A stretch of 64,000 bases of DNA from Octopus vulgaris (taxonomy: Eukaryota): assembly GCA_951406725.2 (NCBI GenBank), contig OX597842.1, forward strand, positions 17,794,001 through 17,858,000, given 5' to 3'. The notes under the pieces were generated by a model that was given only the letters and a program-made list of their open reading frames with translations, made no database searches and was not told where the DNA came from. Positions 861 through 37,296 of this stretch are shown piece after piece (the first letter of the stretch is position 1; every line of letters begins with the position of its first letter). The position numbers and the translations under genes are program-made.

Positions 861-1228
861 TAATAATATATTAAGATTGGTTCGACTCATGTTGATGTCT
901 TCTATAAATTCTATACATGGTTCTTGTTAAAAGAAACAATCTTAATCATGATAATTTGTTCCTTACTTCAATGATGCCGGTGACACATATTAAAGGTCCC
1001 CTTGTAGAACTATACTGATAAAGAAGTATAGAATTATATTATCGCCCTCAAATTTTAGAAACAACAATCATAGCTTTTCCTTTTAATACTTAATTGCATG
1101 AGATTGAAGCCATGAACTTCCTCGAATTGAGGTCTCTCATTTACGCTTAATTAAAATATAGTTTGTTTTTAGAATAACCTATAAGTATTTGCAAACAGGT
1201 CTTCCTTTCGTCGTAAACCGGTGATTAC

Positions 1229-1274
1229 CGTGCGTTGACAAGAGGCAAATTACCTCGAAACTGCAGTCCGTGCG
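1229..1274 (+). ncRNA. Minimal type I hammerhead ribozyme motif, U3-A8 variant, at the tip of a longer imperfect hairpin (1197-1305)
   Basis: cgtgcg-TTGACAA-gagg(caaatta)cctc-GAAA-ctgcag-TC-cgtgcg: stem II 4 bp, palindromic stem III, stem I with two G-U pairs, predicted cleavage after C1268. Confidence 0.7.
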
Positions 1275-1929
1275 TATCGCTTAGGTTTACGAGAGGGGAT
1301 GACCTCCCTTTGCATATATCATAAGGGCACAGAAAGTGTGCCTAACGCCAGCTGGAGACGATGATCTCCTGGGGCTAAAAGCTACCGTAACACCCACCCT
1401 TAGTGGTTAGCCATATGGATATGGCTAGTATACTTTACGTTAAAATAAATTAATTATACTTAAATCCAATTTTTTGCCTTCTGTTCTTTTTTTAATGCAA
1501 ATTTTTATTGCATGGGACTAAAACTAGGAAATTCCTCATGCTGTCTTCTATCCTTAAAACTAAAATAAATATATTTTGCTTTTGAAATAAAAGTTATTTA
1601 GATTTAAACTTGATTGGTCGCATTGTTTACTCTCTATAACGTTGCTACAAATTTTGATCTAAACTTTTTTTACTGGACCAAATCTCAATTATTTTAAGCC
1701 AAAATGTAGCTAGGGACAAGACTTCTTCAGAAATGTTAGCAATTTTTACTTTGGTTCAGAACTGAATTAGCAACAAGCTCTGAAAGATGCTGCTTCTGAG
1801 TAAATTGCGGTCTTAAGAATATTATTCAACTAATACCATAGTTGAATGATATATATAGAGATATGTGTGTGTGTGTGTGTGTGTGTGTGTGTGTGTGTGT
1901 GTGTGCTCAGCACTTTTTTCGATGGCCCG

Positions 1930-1986
1930 TTAACTGAAGAGATGCCGGTGTGGGTTTCCGCCCCGACATCCGAAACTCGGATTTTT
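1930..1986 (+). ncRNA. Degenerate hammerhead-like motif
   Basis: ttaa-CTGAAGA-gatgccgg...ccgacatc-c-GAAA-ctcgga; stem III and the cleavage triplet are damaged. Confidence 0.4.
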
Positions 1987-2024
1987 ATCATGGCTACCGA
2001 ATAATTGTCACATATTATATAAAT

Positions 2025-2552
2025 AGAAAGATAGATAGATATATAGATAGACAGAAGATAAATAGGCATAGAGAGAGAGAGAGAGAGAGGTAGACAGACA
2101 GACAGATAGATAGATAGATAGATAGATAGATAGATAGATAGATAGATAGATAGATAGATAGATAGATAGATAGACAGAGAAGATAAATAGGCAGAGAGAG
2201 AGAGAGAGAGAGGTAGACAGAAAGACAGACAGACATACAGATAGATAGATAGATAGATAGATAGAGAGACAGACAGACAGACATATAGACATACAGACAG
2301 ACATACATACAGACAGACAGACAGACAGACAGATAGATAGATAGATAGATAGATAGATAGATAGATAGATAGATAGATAGATAGATAGATAGATAGATAG
2401 ATAGGTAGATAGGTAGATAGGTAGATAGATAGATAGATAGATAGATAGATAGATAGATAGATAGATAGATAGATAGATAGATAGATAGATAGATAGATAG
2501 ATAGATAGATAGATAGATAGATAGATAGATAGATAGATAGATAGATAAATAG
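2025..2552. repeat. (GATA)/(GACA) microsatellite
   Basis: Direct reading. Confidence 0.95.
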
Positions 2553-2734
2553 AGAAGGAAAAGTGCGATAGGCTAAAACCAGGCGAATACCACAGTTAGC
2601 ATTTCATGCGTGAAACCTAGCGAATATAACGTCCATATTGATTAAATATGGTAGGCGATTAGTACAAACTGTAAATCGAAAGTTATTCACCAATTGGTAT
2701 GTTGGTGTATTAATCACAGATTATGCAAGCATTT

Positions 2735-2915
2735 AGATACTGGCACTCCGTCGGTTACGACGACGAGATTTCCACTTGATCTGATCATTGGAACAGCCTG
2801 CTTGTGAAATTAACGTGAAAGTGGATGAGCACTCCAACAAACACGCGTACCCTTAACGTAGTTATCAGGGAGAATCAGCGTGACACAGAGTGTGGCAAGG
2901 CTGGCCCCTTTGAAT
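2735..2915 (+). mobile_element. Nin/Deu-domain-like SINE fragment
   Basis: gagcactcc..acacgcgtacccttaacgtagtt..gggaga.tcagcgtgacacagagtgtg matches my recollection of this domain; not verified by search. Confidence 0.45.
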
Positions 2916-3049
2916 AAAACAATTAAAAAGAAGCAATAGATAACAAAGGAGATGAGGAAAGCTTCTAACAATGCAGAGCTGAAGGTTGAATAGCTTCTAT
3001 ATATTTCGAGTGCAAAGCCCATATTCAGGAGTGTCGAAGAAATGCGTGT

Positions 3050-34027: not shown

Positions 34028-34443
34028 TTCTTTTATTCTTTTATTCTTTTACTTGTTTCAGTCACTTGACTGCGGCCATGCTGGAGCACCGCCTTTAATC
34101 GAGCAACTCGACCCCGGGACTTATACCATCGGTCTCTTTTGCCTAACCGCTAAGTAACGGGGACATAAACACACCAGCATCGGTTGTCAAGCAATGCTAG
34201 GGGGACAAACATAGACACAAACACACACACGCATATATATATATATATATATATCTATATATATATACACATATATACGACAGGCTTCTTTTCAGTTTCC
34301 GTCTACCAAATCCACTCACAAGGCTTTGGTCGGCCCGAGGCTATAGGCAGAAGACACTTGCCCAAGGTGTCATGCAGTGGGACTGAACCCAGAACCATGT
34401 GGTTGGTAAACAAGCTACTTACCACACAGCCACTCCTGCGCTT
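34028..34443 (-). mobile_element. CORE-like SINE within the presumed 3' UTR of gene B
   Basis: Full head and tail. Confidence 0.85.
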
Positions 34444-34663
34444 ATGTATGTATGTATGTATGTAAAAATATGCATGTGTGTAGATATGTATGTTTGTATC
34501 TATGTATGTATGTATGAATGTATGTATGTATGTATGTATGTATGTATGTATGTATGTATGTATGTATGTATGTATGTATGTATGTATGTATGTATGTATT
34601 TATGTATGTATGTATTTACGTATGTATGTAAAAATATGTAATTTCTGGAATTGTATATGTATT

Positions 34664-34713
34664 CTATTTTAAAAGTACTGAGAAGACCAGTTGTGGGTAT
34701 CGCCATTGCACAT
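34664..34713 (-). CDS. Gene B last coding exon (DVQWRYPQLVFSVLLK*)
   Basis: Acceptor gtttttcag, TAG stop, downstream tagaatacatatacaattccagaaa homologous to A's tagaatatatattattccagaaa. Confidence 0.75.
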
Positions 34714-34896
34714 CTGAAAAACACGAAAGGATAGATTCGTTAAAAATTTATTAAATTAACTCAATGCCCACACGCGTATCTCTCTCTCATTCTCTATCTA
34801 TGTATGTAGCTATCTATCTATCAACCTATCTATATTTGAATATGTATGTATATATATATATATATATATATATATATATATATATCTCTTTATATA

Positions 34897-35195
34897 TCTT
34901 TATATATAAAGCTGAAGTTGTGTAAGAGTCTGTCTCCTCCGATTTAGATTGCTAACTACTCCAACATTTTGCGGTGCAGTTTAACCAAAAGCGGGTATCT
35001 TATAGTCGTGATTCAAATCGAGCCCTTCTGTGTATTAGCGCGCGTCTATGATGAGTATATGATTTTTTAAAAAAATTATCATTAATTTTCCGCATTTTTA
35101 ATGCATTTTTTGCATATATAATGGAGTAACTCTCTAAAAATGCTTATATAGTTATTTCCCTTACAAATCCGAGCAACGCCGGTTGATACTGCTAG
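34897..35195 (+). mobile_element. Non-autonomous Helitron-like element
   Basis: 5' TC after A, 3' hairpin ccgagcaacgccgg then CTAG before T; same family at 39065-39360. Confidence 0.7.
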
Positions 35196-35937
35196 TATAT
35201 ATATAAATTAAATTAGAGATAAAACCACTATTAGGCAAATCAAACAGTGATAGACATAAACCTAAACATAAAAAACAAAAAATAAATATAATTAATATAA
35301 TATACAATATATATATATATATATATATATATAAATATTTAGAATTTAGATGATTAAAACTTTAAATTTTAGAATTTAGATGATTAAAACTTTAAATTTT
35401 TAAATTTATATTAATAATTTTTTAAATTTTTGTATATATTTGTTATAATTTTTTGCAAAAAACAATGTAATTTTCTTTTTCCCCCTTCTCACTTAAAAAA
35501 AAAATTTTCCTTTACAATTCTTGAAAAGTCACATACTGACGAAAATCGGTTTGAATATACATATATTTATATATTTTATCAATTTTTCAAAAACTTTTTC
35601 CATACACCCATTTTCATTAAAATTTTCTTTCAATTTAGCATTCTGCCTTTTTACAATTTTTTCTTGCTATATATATATATATATATATATATATATATAT
35701 ATATATATATATATATATATATATATATATATATATATATATATATATATATATATATATATACGACGGGCTTCTTTCAATTTCCGTCTACCACATTCAC
35801 TCACAAAGTTTGGTCGGCCCGAGGCTATAGTAGAAGACACTTGCCCAAGGTGCCACGCAGTGGGACTGAACCCGGAACCATGTGGTTAGTAAACAAGCTA
35901 CTTACCACACATCCACTCCTGCGCCTATGTGTGTATA

Positions 35938-36687
35938 TCTCTATATATAAACGGCAGTTTGTCTGTCTGTGTGTCTGTGTGTCTGTGTGTCTGTCAGGTT
36001 GTACCCTCACCCTGACCACGGCTTTCAACCGATTCTGATGTAACTTGACACCAGTCCCCCCAGTTCTGAAAAAAATCGATAAATTCGACATGGGTCGAGA
36101 ATCTAAGCCTTTTATATGCAACACATTTTCTACAGACTGTCTAGGGGACGCAACTCGACCTTTTTAACTCTCGGAACACGGGTAAGTATCCCAAAATGTA
36201 TAAAAATGTACAAAAACGGCAAAAAAGCGGGCAGCAATGTGAGTGACAACAACGAAAAAGTCAAAAGTGACCAACCTGAACAAACGAATAGAAAAGGTTT
36301 TTTGATTCACACGACAAAAGCGGTTTATAATAAACCAAGAGTTTGCAAGTAGCGTTTGAGGACCGTTAGGGTACGTCAAAAATTTAAGGTAAAACGTTTG
36401 GGGTGGTAGTTATAAAGAAAGTGTAAACAAAAAAAGTATTCGAATAACTTGCGCCTCCAGCAGCTATTAGCAGAAGTGGAGGTAAAGTCTCGAATGTGAT
36501 TTCTTCCTTGTAGGAATTGGTTGGGTTGAATTATCGATAGCTGTTTGATAGTTATTTGGGAGTGAAGAGAAGACATTGCAACCTACACATGCGCCTTCGT
36601 TCCCTAGAGGGTAAGGACTAGATTGGGATTAGTCGTTGCCTACAAGGGGCTCTTACATACCCGGGCAACGCCTGGCTATGCTGCTAG
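35938..36687 (+). mobile_element. Helitron-like element with a different interior
   Basis: TC start followed by (CTGT) repeats, 3' cccgggcaacgcctggc...gctgCTAG-T. Confidence 0.65.
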
Positions 36688-37260
36688 TGTTAAATAATAT
36701 AAGATAACAAGGCCAAGGCAATTTGATAGTCCTAAGACATTTATAAATGGAAAGGTCGTCATACAGCTGTTTCAGGGAAACATGGTTCCGGGTTCAATCC
36801 CACTGCGTGACACTTTGGCCAAGTGTTTTCTACTACGGCCTCCGGTCGACCCAGGGTTTGTGAGTGGATTTGGTAGAGGGAAACTCAAAGAAGCTCGTCG
36901 TATACATTCATATATGTTTGCATGTGTGTTTGTCCCAGGCCAAAGAATAAAAGAATATATGTATCTTCTTTTATTTGTTTCATTCACTTGACTGCGGCTA
37001 TGCTGGAGCATCGCTTTTAAGTCCAACAAATCAACCCCAGGACTTATTCTATGTGAGCCTAGATTTTATTCTGTCAGTATCTTTTGCCAAACCGCTAAGT
37101 TACGGAGACTTAAGCATACCAACATCAGATGTCAAGCGATTGTTCGGGGACAAACACAGACCCACACACAAATATATATATATATATATATGACCGAGTG
37201 TGTACCGTTGGCAATTTTTTTCAGTCCGTCTTCCCTTCTCTGGATCTTTCCTTTTCCTAT

Positions 37261-37296
37261 GTTTCTGACGAAGAGCTCGGGCTCGAAACGTAAAAC
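37261..37296 (+). ncRNA. Minimal hammerhead motif (canonical core) in a Penelope-like 3' fragment 37193-37398
   Basis: gttt-CTGACGA-a-gagc tcgg gctc-GAAA-cg-TA-aaac; a mutated copy (CCGACGA, GCAT for GAAA) lies at about 9469-9503 (-). Confidence 0.7.

What the first reader, a model, noticed from the sequence alone, without database searches (positions are those of the whole stretch)
1197..37296. Several minimal hammerhead ribozyme motifs with three different compensatory 3-8 base pairs
Seen: type I hammerhead folds at 1229-1274 (core UUGACAA), 20057-20091 (-, AUGAAUA), 14130-14181 and 13491-13542 (CUGAAGA) and 37261-37296 (CUGACGA), plus degraded ones at 1930 and 9469. All intact ones have GAAA, a tiny self-complementary stem III (CUGCAG, CUGG, CGUACG, CG) and UH. 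Established: C3-G8 is a tertiary Watson-Crick pair, and Penelope-like elements carry minimal hammerheads that can cleave as dimers. Inference: the U3-A8 and A3-U8 cores are covarying and possibly functional variants from unrelated families that a plain CUGANGA search would miss.
Basis: partly seen in the sequence, partly recalled or inferred. Interest (0 to 1): 0.7.

Follow-up and report, generated by a model that had tools for sequence, protein, structure and literature searches.

The report
Hammerheads using all four core pairs
Jumping-gene repeats in this animal genome carry thousands of small, likely self-cutting RNA motifs (hammerheads) in which one core base pair, normally C-G, also occurs as U-A, A-U and G-C in whole repeat families; U-A was known, the other two I did not find described in nature, and cutting is untested.

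Summary
Each belongs to a high-copy repeat family. The A3-U8 motif lies about 300 nt downstream of the RT + GIY-YIG ORF of a Penelope-like element (PLE). With positions 3 and 8 left free, genome scans return partners that pair: A3 goes with U8 in 92 of 100 listed (1436 hits, 24 control), U3 with A8 in 84 of 90. A fourth state, G3-C8, occurs in close sisters of an A3-U8 group. Close relatives swap C-G/U-A and A-U/G-C; A3-U8 falls in two groups (AU test p=0.011). U3-A8 is published (Perreault 2011; Cervera 2014). I found no paper on natural A3-U8 or G3-C8, but three key papers could not be read, and this scan noted A3:U8 earlier in a phage. Likely role: slow, dimer-dependent self-cleavage of PLE or retrozyme RNA; no cleavage evidence was obtained. 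Verdict: new variant of a known kind.

The parts
1229..1274 (+). Type I hammerhead, U3-A8 (N3 1235, N8 1240), stem I 6 bp, stem II 4 bp, palindromic 8-nt stem III, predicted cut 1268/1269 (family A)
   Evidence: family state
1197..1305 (+). Long hairpin extending stem I of the family A hammerhead
   Evidence: z -5.34, 0 of 200 shuffles as stable
1170..1441 (+). Solo partial copy of family A, a retrozyme-like repeat (355-bp unit, 10 tandem hammerheads in L151; 2277 first-look candidates)
1929..1989 (+). Degraded C3-G8 hammerhead of family F (N3 1934); stem I and stem III each differ by one base from the family majority
9468..9503 (-). Degraded copy of the family E hammerhead (N3 9499; U4 and GAAA changed), within a family E fragment 9306-9572
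13491..13542 (-). Family C hammerhead-like motif, C3-G8, atypical helix II (inverted copy)
14130..14181 (+). Family C hammerhead-like motif, C3-G8, A.A at 10.1-11.1, bulged helix II, palindromic stem III, predicted cut 14177/14178; lies in a young (about 99% identical) 557-bp unit with copies at 13296-13653(-) and 13654-14470(+)
20057..20091 (-). Type I hammerhead, A3-U8 (N3 20086, N8 20081), stem I 5 bp, stem II 2 bp, stem III self-complementary, predicted cut 20062/20061 (family B)
19993..20459 (-). 3' end of a family B Penelope-like element: end of the GIY-YIG ORF, 3' UTR, hammerhead and about 70-nt tail
   Evidence: 88% to L146; EN match 20498-20397
21431..21860 (+). Inverted, broken fragment of the family B endonuclease region (CxxxxCxxC linker + GIY-YIG)
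   Evidence: 91% to L146; tblastn 84-92%
35517..35556 (+).
37261..37296 (+). Minimal C3-G8 hammerhead with an extra A after A9 (N3 37265), predicted cut 37292/37293, in a family E repeat 37172-37478

Best explanation
These motifs are type I hammerheads at the 3' ends of Penelope-like retroelements and in retrozyme-like tandem repeats, with the core 3-8 pair fixed as C-G, U-A, A-U or G-C in different families, and they likely cut their own RNA slowly as dimers. Shown: the motifs, their family-wide states, the pairing of 3 with 8, the covarying stems and the position downstream of RT + GIY-YIG ORFs. Inferred: two motifs of a tandem or inverted transcript would pair through the palindromic stem III and cut after H17. 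The unit RNA would then be re-ligated to a circle or survive uncut long enough to be reverse-transcribed, since genomic copies keep a whole hammerhead plus a 69-78-nt tail. The pair would have moved by wobble steps (U3.G8 between C-G and U-A; G3.U8 between A-U and G-C) and at least twice by a double transversion between U-A and A-U.
For: Pattern counts in G000 with 3 and 8 not tied together. A3: 1436 hits vs 24 control, 92 of the first 100 with U8. Non-A3: 6869 vs 221; first 100 = 84 U3-A8, 7 C3-G8, 5 U3.G8, 4 other. S3/S8: 351 vs 54; first 100 = 58 C3-G8, 28 G3-C8, 14 mismatched. Longer stem III frame: 994 vs 16, 96 of 100 U3-A8. Family B 33-mer: 259 vs 0, 98 of 100 A3-U8. Stem I was not in the patterns, yet 4 or more of its first 5 positions pair in 20 of 28 A3-U8, 17 of 20 G3-C8 and 16 of 22 U3-A8 hits, vs 8 of 80 pattern-only metagenome hits. 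In 45 motifs parsed 3' of an endonuclease hit, H17 was free but never G, and 13 of 19 distinct stem I variants form 3 bp or more vs 4.7 when strands are swapped (0 of 10000). Homologous swaps: L212 C3-G8 vs L213 U3-A8, 88% identical; G3-C8 copies sit in the 100/100 clade of A3-U8 group 2 with the same stems, 69-81% over a 260-nt window. Between the two A3-U8 groups the flanks are at shuffle level (0.51 vs 0.52) and stem I letters differ (0.31), but core and pairing stay. PLE link: RVT_1 (just under its cut-off) and GIY-YIG Pfam matches; full-length U3-A8 copy L167 has 340-bp direct repeats with a hammerhead in each and a 752-codon open frame. Dimer model: stem III can form only 0-2 bp within one motif, but -8 to -11 kcal/mol as a self-duplex for the perfect 6-8-nt palindromes (-1.7 to -4.9 for family E and the decayed window copies), in line with PMC4209133.
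Against: No cleavage, RNA end or circular junction was seen; only assembled contigs were available. In a full pairwise mutagenesis of one type III hammerhead only the G-C swap rescued the 3-8 pair and all other double mutants there were of low activity (PMC9901934 passage), so A-U and U-A may be poor catalysts. The A3-U8 and G3-C8 motifs are thermodynamically weak: the monomer fold is not the minimum-energy fold, z-scores -0.33 to +1.1; helix II is 2-3 bp and only 1 bp in 10 of 20 G3-C8 copies. No intact A3-U8 or G3-C8 ORF was found among the loci fetched (longest open frames in the examined A3-U8 loci: 344 codons in L146, 229 in L189, 133 in L226), so these may be extinct lineages. Copies are not independent: the counts reflect a handful of families. 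Genomic copies do not start at the cut (1 of the 67 family B alignments listed starts there, with mismatches). The tree rests on frameshifted copies projected on one reference, a single distant outgroup and LG+G4.
Confidence: 0.75

Rival explanations
1. The A3-U8 and G3-C8 motifs keep the hammerhead fold but do not cut at a useful rate; they serve as an RNA dimerisation or RT-binding element.
For: Low activity of non-G-C swaps in vitro; very short helix II; genomic copies carry whole, uncut motifs; PMC4209133 itself allows functions other than cleavage.
Against: The 3-8 pair is the feature of the active conformation (PMC3884650 passage), and H17 is never G in 45 parsed motifs. Neither would be expected of a mere dimerisation signal.
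Confidence: 0.17
2. A3-U8 and G3-C8 are dead hammerheads that arose by chance in a founder copy and were amplified passively.
For: A3-U8 copies look older (median 93% to a reference vs 97% for the U3-A8 family D1) and no intact ORF was found; counts are inflated by copy number.
Against: Two separate A3-U8 groups, a second compensatory step to G3-C8 within one of them, and stems that keep pairing while their letters change.
Confidence: 0.06
3. The window's motifs are chance matches in AT-rich DNA.
For: The 20086 and 35521 motifs fold no better than shuffles.
Against: 0.04 expected per window vs 4 seen; each is the state of a high-copy family at a fixed place behind a PLE ORF.
Confidence: 0.02

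Closest known systems
PLE minimal hammerheads, including the U3-A8 variant of Schistosoma mansoni (Cervera and De la Pena 2014, PMC4209133; read: main text parts 1-2 of 4, supplement file 2 parts 1-2 of 3; supplement file 1 not searchable)
   Same: Type I, palindromic stem III, 3' pLTR of RT-EN elements, inverted pairs 100-700 bp apart, U3-A8 families (about 1,300 hits there). Family E here is a textbook example.
   Different: The rows of their Fig. S3 read as text show C3-G8, two U3-A8 and one U3.G8, but no A3-U8 or G3-C8. The A3-U8, G3-C8 and most U3-A8 families here lack the extra nucleotide after A9 and have a short (1-4 bp), not long, helix II.
Natural core variants of hammerheads (Perreault et al. 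2011, PMC3088659; passages only)
   Same: First natural covariation at 3-8 (U3-A8).
   Different: The passage read names only U3-A8, in several examples; no family-level A3-U8 or G3-C8.
Non-LTR retrozymes (Cervera and De la Pena 2020, PMC7229834, passages; Li et al. 2026, 10.64898/2026.07.22.740005, part 1 of 5)
   Same: Family A: 355-359-bp tandem units each with a type I hammerhead, no ORF found, strongly self-paired (z -4.82); mussel retrozymes are 350-390 bp.
   Different: Family A has a U3-A8 core with C3-G8 sister families; circular RNA was not shown here.
Neptune/Nematis-type PLEs (Craig et al. 2021, PMC8557442; passages)
   Same: [quoted passage not shown]
   Different: Clade not assigned against reference RTs; the HHR searches described in that paper used the strings CUGANGA and GAAA, which these cores would escape.
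Engineered 3-8 swaps (Roberts et al. 2023, PMC9901934, passages; Przybilski and Hammann 2007 and Nelson and Uhlenbeck 2008 not readable)
   Same: The pair can be swapped.
   Different: In that type III construct only G3-C8 rescued activity, whereas here U-A and A-U outnumber G-C by far.

Membership tests
Type I hammerhead ribozyme | Core U4 G5 A6 A9, G12 A13 A14, A15.1-U16.1, H17 not G | tested here: met
   H17 never G in 45 parsed motifs
Type I hammerhead ribozyme | Watson-Crick pair between 3 and 8 | tested here: met
   canonical letters C3-G8 only in families C, E, F and the family A sisters
Type I hammerhead ribozyme | G10.1-C11.1 closing helix II | tested here: met
   families A, B, D, E; partly imposed by my patterns. 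Not met for family C (A.A)
Type I hammerhead ribozyme | Helix I with compensatory changes | tested here: met
Type I hammerhead ribozyme | Self-cleavage 3' of H17 | not testable with these tools
   only contigs available
Rfam hammerhead families | Score at gathering threshold | tested here: not met
   0 matches in the window and in 6 loci
PLE minimal hammerhead (Cervera 2014) | Palindromic stem III / loop 3 | tested here: met
PLE minimal hammerhead (Cervera 2014) | Extra nucleotide between 9 and 10.1 and long helix II | tested here: not met
   extra A only in family E (and possibly C); absent in A, B, D and the G3-C8 set; helix II 1-4 bp
PLE minimal hammerhead (Cervera 2014) | Located in the 3' repeat behind a PLE ORF, same strand | tested here: met
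   families B, D and the other A3-U8, U3-A8, G3-C8 groups. No ORF hit in 43 family A and 33 family C loci; 3 of 25 E and 3 of 20 F loci have weak or ambiguous hits
Penelope-like element, EN+ (Neptune/Nematis type) | RT then CX2-5CxxC linker then C-terminal GIY-YIG | tested here: met
Penelope-like element, EN+ (Neptune/Nematis type) | pLTR direct repeats | tested here: inconclusive
   seen in U3-A8 copy L167; not in the A3-U8 copies examined, which are 5'-truncated or inverted
Penelope-like element, EN+ (Neptune/Nematis type) | RT phylogeny within the named clade | not tested
   no reference PLE set was available
Non-LTR retrozyme (family A) | Short tandem units each with a type I hammerhead, non-coding | tested here: met
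Non-LTR retrozyme (family A) | Abundant circular RNA | not testable with these tools

The most novel reading that the evidence does not exclude
One animal genome holds natural, working hammerhead families for all four Watson-Crick pairs at the catalytic 3-8 position, including undescribed A3-U8 (about 1,300 copies) and G3-C8 (about 85) lineages of Penelope-like elements. PLEs repeatedly retune the pair, so CUGANGA-based censuses miss whole clades of retroelement ribozymes, and the lineages form a natural series for how the 3-8 pair sets cleavage rate.
Probability: 0.5. Interest if true: 0.62.

Novelty: new variant of a known kind. Interest (0 to 1): 0.5.

Why it matters
The C3-G8 pair marks the active hammerhead conformation and G8 supplies the general acid through its 2'-OH (PMC2920678). 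Natural lineages that keep the pair but change both letters give phylogenetic support that PLE hammerheads are selected for the catalytic fold, a point left open by their low activity in vitro. They also show that standard searches undercount them: in this stem III frame alone U3-A8 and A3-U8 hits number in the thousands against a few hundred C3-G8 (extrapolated from the first 100 listed). Closely related elements that differ mainly at 3-8 (L212/L213; L245/L523) are ready-made test pairs. It does not change the mechanism, and the U3-A8 half is published.

Tried and rejected
Rfam: E-value mode returned microsatellite matches to miRNA models (150 of 491 shown); gathering mode returned none. RNA: no RNA holder listed; contigs of 5 distinct runs laid on family B showed no molecule ends or usable circular junction. 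Loose ends near the cut (20060) match sister-family tails, not cleavage. Cut-site footprint in genomic copies: not found. A broad pattern for A3/G3 cores with longer helix II gave no excess over control (497 vs 651), although it exposed the second A3-U8 group. The automatic alignment A1 misregistered the family D rows and was not used for pair counts. A first IQ-TREE run timed out. Four G3-C8 pattern hits looked unrelated to the family and are left out of the estimate of about 85; one earlier G3-C8 candidate pair (L186, L187) gave no parse. 36 of the EN-linked rows gave no parse (other stem III length, distance or decay) and were not counted. Literature searches for natural A3-U8/G3-C8; only engineered G3-C8 turned up (PMC3884650, PMC9901934). 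Not held: Lunse, Weinberg and Breaker 2017 (the most relevant PLE variant paper), Przybilski and Hammann 2007, Nelson and Uhlenbeck 2008; any of them may already mention these pairs. Supplements of the bioRxiv preprint and figure images were not seen.
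Full report
1. Observation. The window is repeat-rich animal DNA (34% GC) from a 2.8-Gb genome; its repeats look octopus-like (recalled; earlier notes use the same word). A type I hammerhead descriptor finds four motifs: N3 at 1235 (+, U3-A8), 20086 (-, A3-U8), 35521 (+, U3-A8) and 37265 (+, C3-G8 with an extra A after A9). The set is the same whether or not 3-8 pairing is demanded, and 100 shuffles give 0.04 per window. The sites at 1934 and 9499(-) are decayed copies of two further families. 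Rfam detects none of them at gathering score.

2. Families. DNA searches of the own genome gave 2277, 1481, 1838, 1244, 2433 and 2093 first-look candidates for the 1235, 20086, 14134, 35521, 37265 and 1934 motifs (40 scored each, so biased to close copies). Family A (1235): every full-core copy printed from the 30 best loci is U3-A8 (one has a core deletion, two are truncated); one locus holds ten tandem 355-bp units that fold strongly (z -4.82); no PLE ORF hit in 43 loci. It fits a non-LTR retrozyme. Family B (20086): a 33-mer with 3 and 8 left free matches 259 times (control 0), 98 of the first 100 as A3-U8; the family stem III is a perfect palindrome that has decayed in the window copy. The motif lies about 300 nt behind an RT + CxxxxCxxC + GIY-YIG ORF on the same strand, and the window itself keeps pieces of that ORF at 20397-20498 and 21431-21860. 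Family D (35521): U3-A8 in 27 of 28 rows, one U3.G8; a sister PLE, 62% identical to B in the endonuclease region. Family E (37265) is the published minimal type.

3. Is 3-8 covariation real? Patterns fixed the rest of the core and the ends of stem III and left 3 and 8 untied. A3: 1436 hits vs 24 for the reversed pattern; 92 of the first 100 have U8. Non-A3: 6869 vs 221; 84 U3-A8, 7 C3-G8, 5 U3.G8, 4 other. C or G at both: 351 vs 54; 58 C3-G8, 28 G3-C8 (24 of one family type), 9 G.G, 5 C.C. A second stem III frame: 994 vs 16; 96 U3-A8. These tallies are hand counts of the first 100 places listed by position, and copies are not independent. Stem I was not in the patterns, yet 4 or more of 5 positions pair in 20 of 28 A3-U8, 17 of 20 G3-C8 and 16 of 22 U3-A8 hits, against 8 of 80 metagenome pattern hits. 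Among 45 motifs parsed behind endonuclease hits, H17 was never G and stem I strands pair with their own partner far better than with another family's (13 of 19 vs mean 4.7).

4. History. Direct swaps between homologues: L212 (C3-G8 tandem) and L213 (U3-A8) are 88% identical. G3-C8 copies fall in the 100/100 clade of a second A3-U8 group, share its stems and are 69-81% identical over a 260-nt window, which understates L523 because of a local duplication in L245. On the RT/EN tree of 23 rows A3-U8 forms two groups separated by U3-A8 families, and one A3-U8 clade is rejected (p-AU 0.011); with G3-C8 rows added the fewest changes are 4. Thirty of 53 candidate rows were left out of that tree as redundant or short. 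Root and direction are not established. Between the two A3-U8 groups flanks are at shuffle identity while core and pairing persist. U3.G8 copies occur inside a U3-A8 clade, and one G3.U8 copy appears, the wobble states expected between the pairs. Contigs from runs labelled as two other organisms lay on family B, and none of the 40 differences shown (of 86) touches 3 or 8; this is a weak hint that the state predates a species split.

5. Mechanism (inferred). Stem III forms 0-2 bp within one motif but a duplex of -8 to -11 kcal/mol between two for the perfect palindromes, so activity likely needs two motifs, supplied by tandem units, pLTR pairs (L167) or inverted copies. Cleavage would fall after H17 (window 1268, 20062, 35552, 37292). 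Family B copies mostly end 69-78 nt past the cut and keep a whole hammerhead, so the template must be uncut or re-ligated, as proposed for PLEs (PMC4209133); PLE tails are discussed in PMC11167929 (part 1 of 4). A slower pair could suit an RNA that must be translated and copied before it is cut, but that is speculation. Against: in one type III hammerhead only G3-C8 rescued the pair (PMC9901934); tolerance is said to depend on the surrounding ribozyme (PMC2920678, part 1 of 2). The A3-U8 and G3-C8 folds are weak and no intact ORF was found for them.

6. Comparison and novelty. U3-A8 is known from Perreault 2011 and from about 1,300 S. mansoni PLE motifs. The representative alignment of Cervera 2014, read as text, has no A3-U8 or G3-C8 row. 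Seven literature searches found no natural A3-U8 or G3-C8, but Lunse 2017, Przybilski 2007 and Nelson 2008 were not held, and an unchecked note of this scan reports A3:U8 in a phage. The motifs work like PLE/retrozyme type I hammerheads; they are not members of an Rfam family by score and differ from the published minimal PLE consensus in lacking the extra nucleotide and the long helix II.

7. Verdict. Observation confirmed, reading supported and extended: three pairs in the window, all four in the genome, with compensatory swaps between relatives. New variant of a known kind; interest 0.5; cleavage untested.

Noticed in passing
window 20835-21167 (+) and 43972-44358 (-): Two paralogous short ORFs or exons with a hydrophobic N-terminus and a weak PAN-domain match (PAN_4, E 6e-4 and 2e-3, below cut-off); the first lies between the two family B fragments.
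   Followed up: partly
window 13296-14470: Family C: very young (about 99% identical) 557-bp unit in tandem and inverted arrays, 1838 candidates, with a hammerhead-like motif whose helix II opens with A.A; no ORF found in 33 loci.
   Followed up: partly
L223:546(-) and G000 C1:34574028, C1:34574435: Three similar copies with a U3.G8 wobble core nested in a U3-A8 clade, possibly a small wobble subfamily.
   Followed up: partly
L508, L511, L512, L514, L517-L519: G3-C8 hammerheads whose helix II is a single G-C pair (or two with a bulge), recurring in several copies.
   Followed up: partly
window 19850-21250 vs G000 C29 (L032-L035); window 900-1700 vs L002, L004: Parts of the window are locally duplicated on the same contig (89-97% identity), so some family hits are segmental duplicates.
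   Followed up: no
window 20383-20524: A 142-bp inverted repeat (91%) at the 5' junction of the family B insertion, also seen in other family B loci.
   Followed up: no
window 5700-7285, 7674-8948, 10857-11835, 28381-29543, 51274-61324: Tandem arrays of 184, 107, 85 and 146 bp and a 10-kb ATAC-type microsatellite; none holds a strict hammerhead.
   Followed up: no
window 17925-18981 and 49015-50071: 1057-nt inverted repeat pair, 94% complementary, 30 kb apart.
   Followed up: no
L129:1793-3205; L202; L143: A different RT-like ORF type (no Pfam hit) next to family E and F motifs; link to those families not established.
   Followed up: no
L250:3220-3583(-), L231, L153: Further U3-A8 tandem or dispersed families resembling family A in layout, with different stems.
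   Followed up: no
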